Positions 42,028 through 60,984 of a stretch of DNA of 64,000 bases are shown here, piece by piece. The stretch spans positions 1,312,001 through 1,376,000 of the forward strand of contig OY781964.1 of assembly GCA_963677485.1 (NCBI GenBank), written 5' to 3'. This DNA is from Armatimonadota bacterium (GTDB lineage Bacteria; Armatimonadota; HRBIN16). The notes under the pieces were generated by a model. It was not told the DNA's origin, did no database searches, and saw nothing but the letters and a program-made list of their open reading frames with translations. The position numbers and the translations under genes were made by a program. Within the stretch, counting starts at the first letter, position 1, and every line of letters begins with the position of its first letter.

Positions 42028-44054
42028 GCCGGTTCCTCCGCCGTTTTGGCCATCAGGGTTTCGTCTACAATCGTGTTGCCGCTAAAGACGAGTGCGTCTA
42101 GCTCAGCCAACAGTTGATCGTCCCTAAAACCTCGCAGTTGGATACTGGCACTGCGGCACGCGGCCACACAGGTGCCGCATCCATGACACAGCCCTTCATT
42201 CACAGAGGCCACCATCTTAGTGGGGTTGCCCTTGCGGTCGGTCAACTGTTCGGCAGTGATCGCTCCGAATGGGCATACCGCTACGCAGAGCTGGCATCCA
42301 GAGCAGGAGTTGTTGTTCACCTCTGCCACGTTGGCTTCCGATTCGAGATGGTCTTTGCTGAACAGCCCGATCACTTTGGAGGCAGCGGCACTGGCTTGGG
42401 CCACGCTATCGGGGATGTCTTTGGGATACTGGCAGGCACCGGCTAGATACACGCCAGCAGTCAGTACTTCAACGGGTCGGAGTTTCGGGTGCGCTTCACT
42501 AAACCAGTTGTCGCCATCCACGCTGATGCCCAGGGTGCGCGCGGTTTGCTTGGCATCGGTCTGAGCTTCCATGGCGGCGGCCAGCACCACCATATCGGCT
42601 TCGATCTCCACCTGTTTGCCGCTGAGGGTATCAGCACCCTTGACCATCAATTTGTCACCCCTTTGAGTGACCTTACTGACGCGGCCACGCAGATAGATGG
42701 CGCCGTATTTGTCTTGCGTCCTGCGCACGAACTCCTCGTAGCCCTTGCCATTGGCGCGGACGTCCATGTAGAACACATAAGCCTGAGCGTCGGGGCACTT
42801 TTCGCGCAGCAGCAAGGCGTGTTTGGCATTATACATACAGCATACTTTACTGCAGTAACTATGCCCGGTCTCATCATCGCGGCTGCCGATGCAGCTAATG
42901 AATACCACGTTCTTGGGCGGCTTGTGGTCACTGGGGCGCACCAGTTTGCCATCGGTAGGCCCGCTGGCGTTGAACAACCGCTCGAACTGCAGGCTGGTGA
43001 TGACATCTTGATACCGGCCGAAACCCAGGTTGCCGTATGGTGTGGGATCCCACATCTTGAAGCCTGTGGCGGCGACGACCGCACCGAAGCTGTCCTCAAA
43101 CACAGTATCTTCCTGTGTGTAGTCGATCGCACCGGCAGGACATCTCTTTTGGCAGGAGCCGCATTTGTCTTTGAGGAATTTCGTGCAGATAGTGCGGTCA
43201 ATCACGGGCACATTCGGCACCGCTTGCGGGAAGGGCACATAGATCGCCTTGCGCGTGCCCAGCTCGCAGTCAAACTCGTTAGGAGCTTTTGAAGGGCATT
43301 TTTCCCAGCACATACCGCATCCGGTACACTTGCTCTCGTCCACGCTGCGCGCTTTTTTGCGAATCGTCACCGTGAAGTTGCCAACAAACCCCTCCACTTT
43401 TTCGACTTCGCTGTAAGTCAGCATCCGAATGTTGGGATGGCTGGCGCAATCCACCATTTTGGGTGTCAGGATGCAGGCTGCACAGTCCAGTGTGGGGAAT
43501 GTTTTGTCATACTGGGCCATTTTTCCGCCGATACTGGGAGTTCGCTCTACCAGAGTCACGTGATAACCCGCATCTGCGATGTCTAACGCGGCCTGGATGC
43601 CTGCGATACCGCCGCCGACCACAAGTGCCTTACGTGTGATAGGAATTTGGTTCGTGAACAGCGGCTTGTTCGTGTCGGCCTTAGCCACCGCCATCGCCAC
43701 CAGGTCGATCGCCTTACGCGTCGCTTCGCCCATATCGGCGTGTACCCACGAGCAATGTTCGCGGATATTCGCCATCTCAAGCATGTGGGGGTTGAGGCCC
43801 ATCTCTGAGATACACCGGCGGAAGGTCGGCTCATGCAGCCGTGGAGAGCAGCTTGCCACCACCACGCGGTCCAGACGATGCTCTGTAATCGCCTGCTTGA
43901 TCTGATTCTGCCCCGGTTCGGAGCACATATACTTATAGTCAGTAGCGAATACTACGCCTGAGTATCGCTTGCTGACTTCTGCGACGTAGGAACAGTCCAC
44001 TGTGCGAGATATGTTCGTGCCGCAATGACATACAAATACACCAACTCGTGCCAT
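42024..44054 (-). CDS. hdrA: Heterodisulfide reductase subunit A
   Basis: GVFVCHCG.NI, CSPRLHE, GGGIAG, KTFPTLDC..C, CSKVCCMY, PKDIP, ferredoxin motifs. Confidence 0.96.
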   Translation of the reverse strand: MARVGVFVCHCGTNISRTVDCSYVAEVSKRYSGVVFATDYKYMCSEPGQNQIKQAITEHRLDRVVVASCSPRLHEPTFRRCISEMGLNPHMLEMANIREHCSWVHADMGEATRKAIDLVAMAVAKADTNKPLFTNQIPITRKALVVGGGIAGIQAALDIADAGYHVTLVERTPSIGGKMAQYDKTFPTLDCAACILTPKMVDCASHPNIRMLTYSEVEKVEGFVGNFTVTIRKKARSVDESKCTGCGMCWEKCPSKAPNEFDCELGTRKAIYVPFPQAVPNVPVIDRTICTKFLKDKCGSCQKRCPAGAIDYTQEDTVFEDSFGAVVAATGFKMWDPTPYGNLGFGRYQDVITSLQFERLFNASGPTDGKLVRPSDHKPPKNVVFISCIGSRDDETGHSYCSKVCCMYNAKHALLLREKCPDAQAYVFYMDVRANGKGYEEFVRRTQDKYGAIYLRGRVSKVTQRGDKLMVKGADTLSGKQVEIEADMVVLAAAMEAQTDAKQTARTLGISVDGDNWFSEAHPKLRPVEVLTAGVYLAGACQYPKDIPDSVAQASAAASKVIGLFSKDHLESEANVAEVNNNSCSGCQLCVAVCPFGAITAEQLTDRKGNPTKMVASVNEGLCHGCGTCVAACRSASIQLRGFRDDQLLAELDALVFSGNTIVDETLMAKTAEEPA

Positions 44055-56880: not shown

Positions 56881-57195
56881 GAAGGGCGGTTCTCGAACCG
56901 CCACGACACGCCAGACCGCGCCAGGGATTTGTCTGAACCACGGATTACACGGATGGGATCGGATAGGTTCGGATGGGAAGGGAGGCCAATCAGGAGATTG
57001 GCGTTCCCAGGGGAATTCCCCCTCTGCGTCCTTGCATCCTTGCGCCTTTGCGTTGGTTGATCGCACCTTTCGTGCCGATAACCAAATCTGCGCAATCTGC
57101 GTCATCTGTGGATTTAAATCCCTTGGTGCCTCATGCCATCAGCTACGGAAATGGCCTTTCCTCGACGCAAGAAGGGCGGTTCGCGAACCGCCCCT
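56881..57195. repeat. Repeat cluster flanking the IS110 left end
   Basis: Two AGGGCGGTTC.CGAACCGCC REPs, GTCTGAACCACGGAT/GCCAATC module, 8-nt and 9-nt tandem triplets. Confidence 0.85.
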
Positions 57196-57209
57196 AGTAC
57201 GCTATATAT

Positions 57210-57410
57210 GGTGAGCTCCCCGGACACCAAAAGCAGTCGGGGAGCTAATCTCACCCCTTAGCTGGGGGTGAAGGAGAAGGATTGGATGCCGGAACCGCCC
57301 CTGGTGGAAAACACCGTGACGTAGATAGGCATCCTTCTCCCAATCAACCCATATCGAACAGTATCTTGGGAGAAAACCCCGTGTTCGCTAGGCTGATTTG
57401 GTTGATTGCA
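57210..57410 (+). ncRNA. Bridge RNA of the IS110 element (ends approximate)
   Basis: Two 5' hairpins; target-binding loop (GAACCGCCCCT 57292-57302, CGTAG 57320-57324) and donor-binding loop (ACAGTATCT 57358-57366, CTAG 57388-57391), each closed by a stem and split by a GAAAA-loop hairpin. Confidence 0.85.
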
Positions 57411-57441
57411 CCATCAATCACTACCAACTGGAGATTACCAC

Positions 57442-58718
57442 ATGCACGAAGTTGAAGACAAAATCTACATCCATTATGTCGGGATCGACATCTCGAAATT
57501 GACGTTTGACGCGTCTGTATTAGGTTCATCGCACAAGCCGATAGACCATAAGGAGTTCAAGAACAACAAGGCCGGATACAAGGAGTTGTTGTCATGGGTG
57601 AAGAAGCTTACCCGAACTCCCGCCTTGTATGCGGCTGAAGCCACCGGGCCTTACAGCCGACCGCTGCTTGATTACCTCTACGAGCACCAGCACGATGCTG
57701 TCCAACTGGAGCCAAAACGGGTTCTCTATCACCGCAAAGCCAAAGGCTGGGAACAAAAGACGGACTGCTCTGACAGCGTGCTAATCGCTGACTATGTGAA
57801 AAGTCACAATGTCTCACTCTATGTCCCTCGTCTAGCATGCTATGATGCGCTTATTGGTTACACCAATGACCGCCGTATGAGGCGATCGCCCAGCGCCAAA
57901 GCTGTCGGCTTACGCGGAGCACAGTGCTGGACGAGATGATCGCTTTTCATGACATGGGCATCAAAAAGCTTGATGTTCAGATCAAAGAGCTTGTGATGAG
58001 TTCACCGCAGATGACCGAAGATATGGCTCTGCTGAAGAGCATTCCGGGTATCGGCGACGTCACAGCAAGCTATTTCCTTGCGAAAATCGGTGATGCTAAA
58101 CGATTTGAAACATCGAAAGCGGTCGCGCGCTATTTCGGAATGAACCCCTGCCCGCAACGGTCAGGAAGCTGCAAGACATACGACGGCTCCATATCCAAGA
58201 TGGGTGACCGATATATGCGGACATTACTCTACTGTGGATCGAGCACTGTGGTGAAGATGGTCAACGGTAAGTCGAAAAAGCTTGGCCAGAGCATGCACGA
58301 CTTCGTGAAGGAACTGCAGCATCCGAATTTGGTAAAGAATCCCAATAAGAAACCGAAGTCCAAGCGAGTTGTCCGGTGCGCAATCATGCGCAAGCAGCTG
58401 GTGCTCATGTGGTCGGTATTAATCAGCCGTCAGCCATATGATCCAAACTTCGGCATCGAACAAGCTTCAAATGCGGCCAACCAGCAACCGCTGACCGACG
58501 CGAACGGACATGTCCAGGATCGTGCCGGAGCGGCCCATGATATAGCCGGTGTAGGCAATGATCCTGGGCTGGACGTGAGCGTTCCAAGACGGGGATGCGT
58601 GGATGGAAATCCCACCAATGAGCCCACTCCTGCCGGCGGTGGTCGGCCCGCATCCCGAAACCGGCCATCGCGCAGTCGGGTGGGCAACAAACCGAGGGTT
58701 CTGACACCAGTATCCTAG
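57442..58718 (+). pseudogene. IS110 recombinase, frameshifted near 57876-57881
   Basis: Frame 1: VGIDISK, EATG.Y, KTD..D; frame 2: SIPGIG, RF....VARYFG..P....SG, ISKMG..Y.R..LY; linker looks shortened. Confidence 0.85.
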
Positions 58719-58970
58719 CTGCGGCAGTCTGCCGATAGCACGCATCGAAGCATAACGATATCTTTCGAAGCCACGAAGATGTCGCACGTCCGTTCGCGAC
58801 TCCGAGCGTCATGTGAGGTGCTACGGACCAACTGATGCCATCTGAGCCTGTTTCTGTCGCGGATCCAGGTTTGGTCTATATGCCACAAACATCACATTAA
58901 CGTTATTCTACGTGGTCTAGAGCCAGTGTCTGATATTCAGGTCCAAATCCCCAGATTTGCCCCTGGGGAC

Positions 58971-58976
58971 TTGACA
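58971..58976 (+). promoter_or_regulatory. -35 box of the circle-junction promoter (partner -10 TACGCT at 57198-57203)
   Basis: TTGACA, then 15 nt to the element end plus AG gives a 17-nt spacer to TACGCT in the circular form. Confidence 0.8.
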
Positions 58977-59030
58977 AAAGCCACAGTATCTACGAATATA
59001 TGCGGTGAGATCGGGTTTTGGGGGCGATGT

Positions 59031-59056
59031 GTAGGGGCGTTTCGAGAAACGCCCTT
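59031..59056 (+). repeat. GTAG-type REP, inverted partner of the interrupted REP
   Basis: GTAGGGGCGTTTCGAGAAACGCCCTT palindrome. Confidence 0.8.
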
Positions 59057-59073
59057 CCCATGCTGCCGACGGT

Positions 59074-60984
59074 TTAGTCTCCCCGCACGGACACAATCCG
59101 AAAGGTGCCGGACTCCACGCTCAGGCTGACCTCGCCGCCCACCAAAGGCATCGCCAGCTCAGGATGCAGCTCATCCTGGCAGCGCAGCGGATTTCGCTCC
59201 GTTATGCCCATCCCACGACGGTGGAAGCTCAAGGCCGTCGTGACCCTGCTGCTGCCCAGATTCGCCACGATGAACAGGGCCCGATGTCCCTTCACCAGAT
59301 AGGCGCTGATCTTGATATTCTCCGTGTTAGAGGAATGGATCAGCTCCTGTGTCTTCCAGTACGGCACCCAGACTGCACCGGTCATCCCGAAAGATCCGAA
59401 GGCTTTCCAGATGTCCGACTGGTGCTCAGGATGCCATATCATCATCACATCGTAGAGTATGGCCAGACTGCGCGCCCGTTCGCGTTCGACCGCATTTCCA
59501 GATATCGGCAATTGGGTGGCGGGTATACCGAAGTTGTGCCCGTGCATCTCTGCACGGAACACATCCTCAGGGTATTCGGGAGTGCCCAGCTTCATCATCG
59601 ACAGCAGATGCTCGCCATCAACGTAGAAATCTGCGAACGAGAGGGCAGGCAGTAGCACGCTAGCCGAGGTGTGGCAGAACAAGATGCCTGGCTTTGCTTG
59701 ATCCTTGACCAGACGATACAGCCCCTTCATCAGCTCCCGCGTGCGCCAGATGGCCATCGTGGGGTGGATTGTGCCATCTTTGCCCCGATACCCGCAACCG
59801 TGCCGGGTGTTAACACACGGCAACGGACAGCTCAAACCGTCGGTGTAAATGCCCCCAAAGCCGTATTCGGCGACTGCCGCGGTGTATTGCTTCAACAGCA
59901 GCTCGGGATAGGGCGTGGCGTTACACACGATACGGCAGATGTCCTGGTTGTCGGGCCTTTGGTACTGGTAGTGATCGCCTATCGGCAGAGAATCCCATCG
60001 GCTCGAATATTCTGGCGATCGAGTGGACATATAGCACCCGGTATAGGGCACAAGCCGCATCCCCTTGGCTCTACAGGCCGCAATCAATGTCCGCAGCTCT
60101 TGAGGGTCTTTCGGCCTGGGCAGGCTCTGCTGGTCGGACCAAGACTCGTGAAACCCCAGATAGTTCACGCCCAGACCAGCCAGCACGTCCAGATAGGCGG
60201 GTTGAGTGGCAGGATCAGGGCTCTTCTCGATGCCGTATCCGCCCATATGGCAATAGCGCATTTGGTAGTAGTCGGCGGGCCACGGCTTCACCGGGGTGGC
60301 CATAAACCCAAAGCACCACTCCCAGTCACCGGTCAACCGATGACGGCTCAGCAGGTTCATCCTGAGGGTCGTCACATTGCAGTCTGGTAGCACCGTGATG
60401 GCACTCTCTGGGTCAGCAGGCGACCAGGGTTCATCGCTTTCGGAAAAGAACTGGATTCCCCTGTCGTCACTGCCCAGCCAAAGATGGTGAACAAACGGCA
60501 GCTTCATCCCCTCAGGCTTGACCGCACCGGCGTTGATGCGCTTTTTGGGCCAGTCCCACACATGAGTCGGGTAGACGGAAGCATGATGGAAATACGAGGC
60601 GTCGCTCCGCTTCAGAGGAATCACCAGATCCAGCGAATCCAGGCTGAGCTCTTTGCCTGCCGAGAGTTTCATGTCGATCCTGGTCATACCATCAAATTCG
60701 GTGGTGATTCGGCAGGTAACGGACAGCTCACGGCTGCTAGCATGGGTCACATACTGCACTGACTCCCTGTCGGAGCTCATTTCTTTGAATTTGATGTTGC
60801 TCCACCGCAGCCTCTTTCCAGCGGTGATGGCGACCAACTGCATCGGCCCAGCAAGGATGTTCTTCTTCTGCGAGATGACTTTCGCCGGAAGCAGCGACAG
60901 GTTGTAGTCGTAAACCCGCCCCCAGCAGTGAACCGACTGCCCCCGTATGACAGGGATGCTCCACGGTGAGATCGTTGCTGCCAT
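59074..60984 (-). CDS. Glycoside hydrolase-like protein (DUF6067-like)
   Basis: EFDG, FGFMATPVKP, GIYTDG, C....HGC, HTS, DGEH motifs. Confidence 0.55.
   Translation of the reverse strand: MAATISPWSIPVIRGQSVHCWGRVYDYNLSLLPAKVISQKKNILAGPMQLVAITAGKRLRWSNIKFKEMSSDRESVQYVTHASSRELSVTCRITTEFDGMTRIDMKLSAGKELSLDSLDLVIPLKRSDASYFHHASVYPTHVWDWPKKRINAGAVKPEGMKLPFVHHLWLGSDDRGIQFFSESDEPWSPADPESAITVLPDCNVTTLRMNLLSRHRLTGDWEWCFGFMATPVKPWPADYYQMRYCHMGGYGIEKSPDPATQPAYLDVLAGLGVNYLGFHESWSDQQSLPRPKDPQELRTLIAACRAKGMRLVPYTGCYMSTRSPEYSSRWDSLPIGDHYQYQRPDNQDICRIVCNATPYPELLLKQYTAAVAEYGFGGIYTDGLSCPLPCVNTRHGCGYRGKDGTIHPTMAIWRTRELMKGLYRLVKDQAKPGILFCHTSASVLLPALSFADFYVDGEHLLSMMKLGTPEYPEDVFRAEMHGHNFGIPATQLPISGNAVERERARSLAILYDVMMIWHPEHQSDIWKAFGSFGMTGAVWVPYWKTQELIHSSNTENIKISAYLVKGHRALFIVANLGSSRVTTALSFHRRGMGITERNPLRCQDELHPELAMPLVGGEVSLSVESGTFRIVSVRGD

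What the first reader, a model, noticed from the sequence alone, without database searches (positions are those of the whole stretch)
57185..58994. IS110 bridge RNA whose target and donor guides can both be decoded from the window
Seen: the non-coding left end folds into stem GGAGAAGG..GGATGCC / GGCATCCTTCTCC, enclosing GAACCGCCCCT (57292-57302; identical to the 11 nt left of the insertion, 57185-57195), a GGTG-GAAAA-CACC hairpin, and CGTAG (reverse complement of the right flank CTACG, 58990-58994). A second stem CAATCAACC / GGTTGATTG encloses ACAGTATCT (57358-57366; identical to the element's last 9 nt, 58983-58991), a GGG-AGAAAA-CCC hairpin, and (G)CTAG (complement of the junction CT-AG(T)). 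Known: this is the two-loop LTG/RTG + LDG/RDG layout with a CT core described for IS621 bridge recombinases; as I recall, ACAGTATCT is also the IS621 left donor. Inference: a natural ortholog from a distant lineage with a conserved donor guide and a reprogrammed target guide, and so a candidate new programmable recombinase scaffold.
Basis: partly seen in the sequence, partly recalled or inferred. Interest (0 to 1): 0.92.

Follow-up and report, generated by a model that had tools for sequence, protein, structure and literature searches.

The report
IS621-like bridge-RNA insertion sequence, broken copy
This is one of twelve copies of a small mobile element whose own RNA reads both its insertion site and its own ends, as in the known IS621 bridge recombinases, so it is a well-supported new example of a known system, not a new kind of one.

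Summary
Window 57196-58991 is a 1796-bp IS110-family element. The same site is empty in a genome of the same genus.

The left end folds into the two-loop bridge-RNA layout. The target loop holds GAACCGCCCCU, which equals the left flank, and GUAG, which pairs with CT-AC. The donor loop holds ACAGUAUCU, which equals the element's last 9 nt, and GUGU[UC]GCUAG, which pairs with CT-AGTACGC.

The genome has 12 copies with identical ends, 10 of them beside one REP-like hairpin. Sites that match the guide perfectly are filled in 6 of 7 cases. One-mismatch sites are filled in 3 of 22.

Six related elements have different target guides that track their different flanks. The RNA helices covary: 29 of 30 pairs show compensatory change.

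The recombinase aligns with IS621 (E 2.5e-28) and has all five catalytic residues. The window copy lacks 16 bp and is frameshifted. Ten intact copies exist, so nothing needs repairing.

No transcript or activity has been shown. Verdict: a new member of a known kind, of moderate interest.

The parts
57172..57195 (+). Target site. It is a REP-like hairpin, AGGGCGGTT-CGCG-AACCGCCC, followed by the core CT. The left target plus core is ACCGCCC-CT at 57187-57195.
   Evidence: Read. As DNA it folds into an 8-bp stem that ends directly before CT. The palindrome GGGCGNTTCGCGAANCGCCC occurs 37 times in the genome, against 0 for the reversed control. The empty orthologous site is shown.
57196..58991 (+). 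The whole IS110-family element, 1796 bp. This is the deleted variant of an 1812-bp element. The CT could equally be assigned to the left end (57194-58989).
   Evidence: Twelve copies share identical ends. The flanks are contiguous in G001.
57198..57203 (+). Candidate -10 box (TACGCT) of a promoter that would form only across the right-end/left-end circle junction. It lies 17 nt after the -35 box in the right end.
   Evidence: By reading only. The corresponding hexamer is TATGCT in elements B and C. PMC11208160 describes such a junction promoter for IS621 (passages). Not tested.
57208..57268 (+). 5' stem-loops that precede the two guide loops.
   Evidence: Fold. Related elements have a hairpin at the same place.
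57273..57340 (+). Target-binding loop. Outer stem: 57273-57281 with 57332-57340. Inner stem: 57287-57290 with 57328-57331. Internal hairpin: 57303-57315.
   Evidence: Fold. Helices 1-3 are 95-98% paired, and 16 of their 17 pairs show compensatory change across 14 sequences.
57292..57302 (+). Left target guide, GAACCGCCCCU. The last 9 nt are the firm part: 7 nt plus the core-binding CU.
   Evidence: Identical to 57185-57195. It tracks the flank in six other element types. Perfect-match sites are occupied in 6 of 7 cases against 3 of 22 for mismatched ones.
57320..57326 (+). Right target guide (C)GUAG, which pairs with CT-AC(G), followed by the handshake bases AU, which could pair with the donor AT that precedes its CT.
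   Evidence: Read. CT-AC is found at 11 of 12 copies and the third base is G in 4 of 12. The handshake positions are defined in PMC11208158 (passage). The assignment here is inference.
57341..57408 (+). Donor-binding loop. Stem: 57341-57349 with 57400-57408. Internal hairpin: 57368-57380.
   Evidence: Fold. Helices 4-5 are 85-96% paired, and all 13 of their pairs show compensatory change.
57358..57366 (+). Left donor guide, ACAGUAUCU.
   Evidence: Identical to the element's last 9 nt. The motif CGAACAGUAUC is conserved in distant relatives.
57381..57392 (+). Right donor guide GUGU[UC]GCUAG, which pairs with CT-AGTACGC if UC bulges out, followed by the handshake base G, which could pair with the last C of the left target.
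   Evidence: Read. It covaries with the left-end sequence: elements B and C have AUUUACAAG or AUAUACAAG and a left end TGTATGC. The bulged geometry is taken from PMC11208158 (passage).
57442..57939 (+). N-terminal fragment of the recombinase (RuvC-like DEDD domain), ended by a frameshift. Relative to intact copies, 16 bp are missing after 57879.
   Evidence: Pfam PF01548, E 4.9e-20. The deletion is seen in the alignment of the 12 copies and in assembled contigs (table 4).
57924..58718 (+). C-terminal fragment of the recombinase in another frame. It holds the Tnp domain with the catalytic serine and a clade-specific tail.
   Evidence: Pfam PF02371, E 1.9e-22. The intact 430-aa form is P0001. 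The tail is conserved in 8 clade proteins.
58971..58976 (+). TTGACA, the candidate -35 box in the right end, 15 nt before the end of the element.
   Evidence: Read. TTGACAAA-N3-CACAGTATCT sits at the same distance from the end in elements A, B, C, L061 and L062.
58983..58991 (+). Left donor plus core, ACAGTAT-CT, at the right end of the element.
58992..58994 (+). Right target, ACG, in the right flank.

Best explanation
Window 57196-58991 is a copy of an IS110-family (IS110 subgroup, IS621-like) insertion sequence. Its left end encodes a bridge RNA.

Inferred life cycle, by analogy with IS621:
1. The element excises as a circle.
2. The joined right and left ends bring a TTGACA in the right end to 17 nt from a TA(C/T)GCT in the left end. 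This makes a promoter that transcribes about 200 nt of the left end.
3. That RNA has 5' stem-loops, a target-binding loop and a donor-binding loop.
4. [quoted passage not shown]
5. In the donor loop, ACAGUAUCU and GUGU[UC]GCUAG do the same at the circle junction ACAGTAT-CT-AGTACGC.
6. A tetramer of the DEDD/serine recombinase exchanges strands at the CT core. The element ends up just 3' of a REP-like hairpin whose 3' arm is the left target.

What is shown here:
- the anatomy and the exact boundaries;
- the guide/flank and guide/end identities;
- guide-flank covariation across relatives;
- covariation in the RNA helices;
- homology of the recombinase to IS621, with intact catalytic residues in 10 of the 12 copies;
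- a preference for sites that match the guide perfectly.

What is inferred: transcription, the junction promoter, RNA-protein binding and the chemistry.

The window copy itself carries a 16-bp deletion and cannot make the recombinase. It keeps an intact bridge RNA and intact ends, so it could move only with enzyme supplied by the 10 intact copies. A second copy at another site (L002) has the same deletion. That fits such mobilisation in trans, although gene conversion between copies could also explain it.
For: Anatomy and chance.
- Strings and fold.

Copies.
- The genome has 12 full copies with identical ends.
- No substitutions occur in the first 246 nt of any copy, and each copy differs from the majority by at most 2 substitutions.
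- The covariance model finds 14 bridge RNAs in the genome (12 of type A, 2 of paralogue B) and no orphans.

Empty site.
- G001 has the two flanks contiguous with a single CT.

Target.
- 10 of 12 copies follow the REP-like hairpin ...CGAANCGCCC-CT, and 11 of 12 are followed by AC.
- Unoccupied GAANCGCCCCTAC sites number 20: 1 with C, 16 with T and 3 with A at the variable position.
- Occupancy among sites followed by AC is therefore 6 of 7 for the perfect guide match, 2 of 18 for the T variant and 1 of 4 for the A variant.
- My hand-computed hypergeometric tail is P about 0.001. This is my arithmetic, not a tool result.

Guide-flank covariation (guide / flank).
- A: ACCGCCC / ACCGCCC.
- B: CGCGCCC / CGCGCCC in one copy and CCTGCCC in the other.
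- C: GUCAUCC / GTCATCC in 6 of 9 copies, with one mismatch in the other 3.
- L061: GUGGCCC / GTTGCCC. L062: CGUGCCC / CATGCCC.
- G140: GGUGUCU / GGTGTCT. G095: UAAGAGC / TAAGAGC.
- B, C, L061 and L062 are otherwise nearly identical RNAs. The 5-sequence alignment that also includes A has 89% mean column identity.

Donor covariation.
- The right donor guide changes at two positions together with the left-end sequence, AGTACGC against TGTATGC.

RNA structure.
- Across 14 sequences, 93.6% of cells are paired and 29 of 30 pairs show compensatory change.
- Slid controls give 37-47% paired, and 0 of 500 shuffles reach the observed values.
- The covariance model matches 11 of 41 distant IS110 loci at E <= 1, 7 of them at E <= 0.0013. 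Where I checked the position (L019, L056, L057, L059 and L060; L070, L071 and L083), the match lies just upstream of the recombinase gene.

Protein.
- Pfam PF01548 plus PF02371.
- IS621 (8wt6) E 2.5e-28 and ISCro4 (9t56) E 5e-26.
- D16, E66, D108, D111 and S246 align with the IS621 catalytic residues and are invariant in 8 clade proteins.

Assemblies.
- Two runs hold an 1820-nt repeat contig at word depth 117-154, against about 10 for the flanks.
Against: - No RNA has been shown. The only RNA-library data are metatranscriptome contigs of a relative about 95% identical. They run from the flank through the left end into the gene. The tool itself warns that such contigs do not show transcription.
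- The linear sequence has no sigma-70-like promoter on the + strand. The junction promoter is read by eye, and its -10 box in this element (TACGCT) matches only 3 of 6 consensus positions.
- Two of the 12 insertions (L003, L004) match the 9-nt guide poorly: 5 of 9 and 8 of 9. The third base of the right target matches in only 4 of 12.
- The right target guide and the left donor guide do not vary among the close relatives, so they give no covariation. Element C has a mismatch at left-donor position 7.
- Rfam has no matching family. It also finds nothing in four other left ends where my model places a bridge RNA (L041, L018, L019) or in IS110 loci of Brenneria and Pectobacterium (L104, L107), so this negative says little.
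- My model found nothing in 6 further distant loci.
- The 14-sequence alignment is fitted to the model, which inflates pair counts.
- The window copy is frameshifted.
Confidence: 0.9

Rival explanations
1. The recombinase recognises the REP hairpin and the element ends directly, as a protein. The copies of flank and end sequence in the left end are subterminal protein-binding repeats or a regulatory 5' leader, not RNA guides.
For: The left target is always the 3' arm of a hairpin in elements A, B, C and G140, so the protein could be reading structure. Two off-consensus insertions (L003, L004) still lie beside GC-rich hairpin-like sequence. No RNA has been shown.
Against: The guide strings sit in internal loops of helices that covary (29 of 30 pairs). 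Near-identical RNAs differ mainly in the 7-nt guide, and their flanks differ in step. A single-base mismatch in the guide region goes with a drop in occupancy from 6 of 7 to 3 of 22. The enzyme is homologous to IS621, whose RNA guidance has been shown experimentally (PMC11208160, passages).
Confidence: 0.04
2. The family is a decodable fossil. The copies are alike because of gene conversion or segmental duplication, and nothing moves any more. The bridge RNA can be read from the sequence but is not in use.
For: The window copy and L002 are frameshifted. One perfect target and 19 one-mismatch targets remain empty. No circle junction or transcript was seen, though contigs cannot show them.
Against: 10 of 12 copies keep a full 430/442-aa reading frame with all catalytic residues. 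The 12 copies lie in 12 different flanks and differ from the majority by at most 2 substitutions each. The site is empty in the sister genome G001, which is 90-95% identical in the flanks, so the insertion is recent.
Confidence: 0.06

Closest known systems
IS621 of Escherichia coli (bridge recombinase and bridge RNA; PDB 8wt6)
   Same: - Same two protein domains and catalytic residues.
- The RNA is encoded in the left end, with 5' stem-loop, target loop and donor loop.
- CT core.
- The left donor plus core ACAGTAT-CT is identical to the IS621 donor oligo printed in PMC13396178.
- The right target begins AC, as in the wild-type IS621 target ATCAGGCCTAC (PMC11208160, figure legend read).
- The right donor guide fits with a 2-nt bulge and a G-T wobble at the same place. 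The handshake bases are A and G (PMC11208158 passages; mapping by my reading).
- Both target REP-type palindromes (reference list of PMC11208160).
   Different: - Protein identity is only roughly 30% over about 265 residues by my reading of the alignment (E 2.5e-28).
- The protein has 430 aa against 326 native residues in IS621 (328 in the PDB chain), with a conserved C-terminal tail of no known family.
- The non-coding right end is 273 nt long.
- The left target is ACCGCCC, not ATCAGGC.
- The right donor is AGTAC, not TGTAT, with matching changes in the guide.
- No experimental data exist for this element.
ISCro4 (PDB 9t56) and IS622, engineered orthologues of IS621
   Same: Same family. ISCro4 aligns at E 5e-26.
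   Different: They are close relatives of IS621 from enterobacteria. This element belongs to a rare separate clade: only 7 protein clusters at 41% identity or more among 5.8 billion proteins. IS622 is known to me only from a search listing (10.1101/2025.05.14.653916).
ISPpu10 of Pseudomonas putida (target stem-loop as a second specificity layer; preprint 10.64898/2026.03.19.712850, abstract and outline read)
   Same: Insertions lie beside copies of one conserved intergenic GC-rich stem-loop. Here an 8-bp hairpin ends directly at the CT core in elements A, B and C.
   Different: Here the left target itself is the 3' arm of the hairpin. Whether the structure contributes to recognition is untested. 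I did not compare the sequences.
IS1111 subgroup of the IS110 family (seekRNA elements)
   Same: Same recombinase family and RNA-guided logic.
   Different: In that subgroup the RNA lies in a long right end and the subterminal inverted repeats are long (PMC11208160, passages). Here the RNA is in the left end.

Membership tests
IS110-family bridge recombinase element, IS110 subgroup (IS621-like) | A recombinase with an N-terminal RuvC-like DEDD domain and a C-terminal Tnp domain carrying a catalytic serine. | tested here: met
   PF01548 (E 4.9e-20) and PF02371 (E 1.9e-22). D16, E66, D108, D111 and S246 of the intact copy align with the IS621 catalytic residues and are invariant in 8 clade proteins. 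In the window copy the two domains are separated by a frameshift.
IS110-family bridge recombinase element, IS110 subgroup (IS621-like) | The same core dinucleotide (CT) at both junctions, with no target duplication beyond it and precise boundaries. | tested here: met
   All 12 copies read ...CT|AGTACGC...ACAGTATCT|A.... The empty site in G001 has a single CT.
IS110-family bridge recombinase element, IS110 subgroup (IS621-like) | A long left end encoding a structured RNA with two internal loops. | tested here: met
   The left end is 246 nt. Fold z = -3.45. Covariation is seen in 29 of 30 pairs over 14 sequences, with the caveat that the alignment is fitted to the model.
IS110-family bridge recombinase element, IS110 subgroup (IS621-like) | The first loop carries a left guide identical to the left target plus core and a right guide complementary to core plus right target, and these covary with the targets. 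| tested here: met
   The left guide matches in A and tracks the flanks in six other element types. Occupancy is 6 of 7 against 3 of 22. The right guide GUAG matches CT-AC in 11 of 12 copies, but it is invariant among relatives, so it gives no covariation.
IS110-family bridge recombinase element, IS110 subgroup (IS621-like) | The second loop carries guides that match the right-end/left-end junction (the donor). | tested here: met
   The left donor guide matches 9 of 9. The right donor guide matches CT-AGTACGC with a 2-nt bulge and covaries with the left end in B and C.
IS110-family bridge recombinase element, IS110 subgroup (IS621-like) | A promoter rebuilt across the circle junction that drives the RNA. 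| tested here: inconclusive
   TTGACA is conserved 15 nt from the right end in five element types. The -10 candidates TACGCT and TATGCT are read by eye. The scan of the linear sequence finds no + strand promoter. The junction itself could not be scanned.
IS110-family bridge recombinase element, IS110 subgroup (IS621-like) | The RNA is made, is bound by the recombinase, and reprogramming its guides changes specificity. | not testable with these tools
   Only contigs from RNA libraries of a relative about 95% identical were available, and these do not show transcription.
IS110-family bridge recombinase element, IS110 subgroup (IS621-like) | A match to a curated RNA family model. | tested here: inconclusive
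   Rfam 15 gives no hit at E <= 1 here. It also finds nothing in five other IS110 loci, apart from one unrelated weak hit elsewhere in L019. The library therefore seems to hold no usable model.
IS1111 subgroup (RNA in the right end) | The guide RNA is encoded in a long right end and the left end is short. | tested here: not met
   The only structured-RNA match lies in the left end at 57270-57410. All 14 genomic matches lie upstream of the recombinase gene.
Stem-loop-gated IS110 targets (ISPpu10 type) | The target is flanked 5' by a GC-rich stem-loop that contributes to recognition. | tested here: inconclusive
   An 8-bp hairpin ends at the core in A, B and C, and a similar palindrome is present in G140. 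I saw none in G095. The functional contribution was not tested.

The most novel reading that the evidence does not exclude
Elements A, B and C form a rare, separate subfamily of bridge recombinases. Only 7 protein clusters at 41% identity or more were found among 5.8 billion proteins. The subfamily has a conserved C-terminal tail absent from IS621 and ISCro4: about 65 residues in all 8 clade proteins and up to about 90 in the six closest. Its left target is the 3' arm of an 8-bp hairpin that ends exactly at the core. In this reading the hairpin, extruded or single-stranded, is part of recognition, and the tail or the longer 11-nt guide match seen in A and C reads it. That would give tighter natural specificity than IS621.
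Probability: 0.15. Interest if true: 0.55.

Novelty: new member of a known kind. Interest (0 to 1): 0.35.

Why it matters
Bridge recombinases are being developed as programmable tools for inserting, inverting and excising DNA, and new orthologues are screened for activity. This element offers a clean natural data set.

- It has 12 copies with exact boundaries and an empty site in a sister genome.
- Its target family shows a single-base preference in the genome: 6 of 7 perfect sites are filled, against 3 of 22 mismatched ones.
- Close relatives have reprogrammed target guides.
- A recombinase-dead copy sits at two sites, which may reflect mobilisation in trans.

That makes it a reasonable candidate for testing and a useful case for studying mismatch tolerance and hairpin targets. 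It does not change what is known about how these systems work.

Tried and rejected
- **Rfam.** No hit for 56900-59300 at E <= 1. Five other IS110 loci also gave nothing, apart from one unrelated weak hit. I read this as the library lacking a usable model, not as evidence against the RNA.

- **Close-relative scan of genome contigs with one protein.** Nothing found. The repeat with an alignment found the G001 copies and relatives at 31% identity or less over comparable lengths. One short 40% segment came from L156.

- **Covariance model R1 on six further distant loci** (L103, L104, L107, L156, L167, L173). 0 of 6 matched. Several of these contigs are short upstream of the gene.

- **Reads.** Only assembled contigs were available. 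They cannot show a transcript start, a circle junction or an expression level.
  - The metatranscriptome contigs of a relative about 95% identical cover 57172-57561. They carry G57292T and C57320T; the second would make the right target guide UGUAG.
  - One loose end puts AAAGCC... after 58993, that is CT-ACA. This is a single hint, not evidence of transcription. I draw no conclusion about habitat from the small shares.

- **REP copies followed by CT-AGTACGC without the element** (L046, L047). I considered solo left ends or excision scars. I rejected this because the bases belong to another repeat family of about 190 bp with more than 50 matches, whose consensus there is GTCCGCTGAAGCGGAC.

- **Third ACAGTATCT at 43102.** It has no element features, and R1 matches the window only once.

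- **C-terminal tail (residues 336-430).** No Pfam family and only unnamed clusters in the protein atlas.

- **Phylum-wide scan.** Relatives at 42% identity or more were found in 2 of 401 genomes searched, namely G000 and G001. This means not found in those searched, not absent.

- **Not done.**
  - Structure and complex prediction were not needed.
  - I made no search for a prior description of this particular element. The supplementary tables of PMC11208160 list its predicted orthologues and may already include this one. Supplements are closed and I did not request them.
  - I did not try to name the organism or the source of any unnamed record.

- **Papers.**
  - PMC11208160: passages.
  - PMC11208158: passages.
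  - PMC13396178: one Methods passage.
  - 10.64898/2026.03.19.712850 and PMC13626964: abstract and outline.
  - All others: search listing only.
Full report
**1. The observation**

- GAACCGCCCCT occurs twice in the 64-kb window, at 57185-57195 and 57292-57302. Chance expectation is 0.02.
- ACAGTATCT occurs at 57358-57366 and 58983-58991. A third match at 43102 is unrelated. Expectation is 0.38.
- The RNA fold of 57196-57441 gives the two stems with internal loops and small hairpins that were described: -88 kcal/mol, z = -3.45, 0 of 200 shuffles as stable.

**2. What the element is**

The two reading frames 57442-57939 and 57924-58718 carry Pfam DEDD_Tnp_IS110 (E 4.9e-20) and Transposase_20 (E 1.9e-22).

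The window's genome is one 5.22-Mb contig. It holds 12 full copies, and all begin AGTACGC and end ACAGTATCT.
- Ten copies are 1812 bp long with an open frame of 442 aa, or 430 aa from the ATG at the window-equivalent of 57442.
- The window copy and one other (L002) lack the same 16 bp after 57879 and are frameshifted (table 4).
- The first 246 nt are identical in all 12 copies, and each copy differs from the majority by at most 2 substitutions.

The intact protein matches IS621 (8wt6, E 2.5e-28) and ISCro4 (9t56, E 5e-26). D16, E66, D108, D111 and S246 lie opposite the IS621 catalytic residues.

**3. Boundaries**

In same-genus genome G001 the left flank matches up to the last base before the element at 95% identity. 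The right flank resumes three bases later at 90% identity. The G001 sequence reads ...GAACCGCCC-CT-ATCAAT... with one CT. The element is therefore 57196-58991, with the usual ambiguity about which CT belongs to it.

**4. The target**

Ten of the 12 copies lie directly 3' of a REP-like hairpin, AGGGCGNTTC(G/T)CGAANCGCCC-CT. Eleven of the 12 are followed by AC. The perfect 20-bp palindrome occurs 37 times in the genome, against 0 for the reversed control.

The base N is the one position inside the guide match that varies among sites, so it gives a natural test.
- Among unoccupied GAANCGCCCCTAC sites, 1 has C (the guide's base), 16 have T and 3 have A.
- Among occupied sites followed by AC, 6 have C, 2 have T and 1 has A.
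- Occupancy is thus 6 of 7 for perfect matches, against 3 of 22 for single mismatches.
- My hand calculation of the hypergeometric tail gives about 0.001.
- Left out of this count: L005 (T variant followed by AT), and L003 and L004 (other GC-rich sites that match the 9-nt guide at 5 and 8 positions).

The third base after CT-AC is G in 4, A in 4, T in 2 and C in 1 of the 11 copies followed by AC. Only GUAG of the right target guide is supported.

**5. Relatives and covariation**

The genome also holds a paralogue B (45% protein identity, two copies). G001 holds nine copies of element C (42%). Metagenome contigs L061 and L062, and two-copy elements in genomes G140 and G095, add four more types.

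Guide against left flank, for the 7 nt before CT:

| Element | Guide | Flank |
|---|---|---|
| A | ACCGCCC | ACCGCCC |
| B | CGCGCCC | CGCGCCC; CCTGCCC in the second copy |
| C | GUCAUCC | GTCATCC in 6 of 9; GTCGTCC in 2; GCCATCC in 1 |
| L061 | GUGGCCC | GTTGCCC |
| L062 | CGUGCCC | CATGCCC |
| G140 | GGUGUCU | GGTGTCT |
| G095 | UAAGAGC | TAAGAGC |

- B, C, L061 and L062 are otherwise near-identical RNAs, and G140 and G095 have near-identical left ends. The differences are concentrated in the guide and follow the flank.
- The right flank is ACG in B, in C (8 of 9), in L061 and in L062. This matches the invariant CGUAG.
- On the donor side all types end ACAGTATCT. A begins AGTACGC and the others begin TGTATGC. 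The right donor guide differs at the two matching positions: GUGU[UC]GCUAG against AUUUACAAG or AUAUACAAG.
- The bulged pairing and the G-T wobble follow the IS621 structure paper (PMC11208158, passage).
- By the same paper's definition, the bases after each right guide are handshake guides. AU in the target loop could pair with the donor's AT. G in the donor loop could pair with the target's last C. This mapping is my inference.

**6. RNA family**

A covariance model of the two loops was built from A, B, C, L061 and L062.
- On those five sequences the structure I specified is 95.3% paired with 6 compensatory pairs.
- The model matches 11 of 41 distant IS110 loci at E <= 1, 7 of them at E <= 0.0013. 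Where I checked, the match lies just upstream of the recombinase gene. The printed alignments show the conserved motif CGAACAGUAUC, with small variations.
- The 14-sequence alignment is 93.6% paired, with compensatory change in 29 of 30 pairs. Slid controls give 37-47%, and 0 of 500 shuffles reach the observed values. This alignment is fitted to the model, which favours the structure.
- In the own genome the model finds exactly 14 copies, 12 of A and 2 of B.

**7. Promoter and expression**

TTGACA lies 15 nt before the right end in five element types. After circularisation it would stand 17 nt from TACGCT (A) or TATGCT (B, C) in the left end.

This fits the junction promoter reported for IS621 (PMC11208160, passages). 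It also fits the weak expression from integrated copies reported for IS621 (PMC13626964, abstract). It is read by eye only. The linear scan finds no + strand promoter, and no transcript evidence could be obtained.

**8. Comparison with what is known**

The element meets every sequence-level criterion of the IS621-type bridge system. It is not of the IS1111 type.
- Its left donor plus core is the same as in an IS621 donor oligo printed in PMC13396178.
- B and C share 16 nt of that donor.
- Such donor conservation is stated for IS621 relatives in PMC11208160.
- Hairpin-flanked targets are described for ISPpu10 (preprint abstract).

What differs is the clade.
- Only 7 protein clusters at 41% identity or more were found among 5.8 billion proteins.
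- Close relatives were found in 2 of 401 genomes of the phylum that were searched.
- The clade has a conserved C-terminal tail of no known family.
- The non-coding right end is 273 nt long.

**9. Verdict**

This is a new member of a known kind. The window copy is a non-autonomous, recombinase-dead copy with an intact bridge RNA. Interest is moderate, because thousands of such orthologues have been predicted and the mechanism is established. The locus does offer an unusually complete natural data set.

Noticed in passing
window 59031-59043 (minus strand); also G000:C1:1371031-1371043: An unoccupied one-mismatch target (GAAACGCCCCTAC, within a second REP-like hairpin) lies 40 bp to the right of the element, in the opposite orientation.
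   Followed up: partly
G000 genome-wide; window 57172-57195: The REP-like palindrome GGGCGNTTCGCGAANCGCCC occurs 37 times, against 0 for the reversed control. Nine of these perfect copies carry the element.
   Followed up: yes
L046 144-336 (G000:C1:1990843-1991035), L047, L048-L054: A separate intergenic repeat family of about 190 bp has more than 50 matches in the genome and often abuts the REP hairpin. In L046 and L047 it follows CT with AGTACGC, the same 7 nt as the element's left end. This is apparently coincidence, since the family consensus there is GTCCGC.
   Followed up: partly
window about 56909-57054: The intergenic stretch to the left of the element holds another short repeat of about 85 bp. 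It matches dozens of places in sister genome G001 at 80-94% identity.
   Followed up: no
G000:C1:1296855-1298066 (L041) and 2667936-2671719 (L044/L045): Paralogue B (45% protein identity) has its own bridge RNA and its own target, CGCGCCC-CT. One copy has a 387-aa frame. In the other, the protein match is split by about 2.5 kb that I did not examine.
   Followed up: partly
P0001 residues about 336-430 (window 58447-58718): The C-terminal tail is conserved across the 8 clade proteins (for example ANQ..SD..G.VQ.RAGAA..AG.GN). It is absent from IS621 and ISCro4, has no Pfam family and gives no informative atlas hit.
   Followed up: partly
L001 and L002 (window copy and G000:C1:1871159-1872954): The same 16-bp deletion is present in two copies that sit in different flanks. 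Either a recombinase-dead copy was mobilised in trans, or gene conversion spread the deletion.
   Followed up: partly
runs X15 and X16, laid on window 57172-57561 and 58930-58993: Metatranscriptome contigs hold a relative about 95% identical whose right target guide would read UGUAG (C57320T). One loose end shows a right flank ACA, which would match that changed guide. This is a single observation.
   Followed up: no
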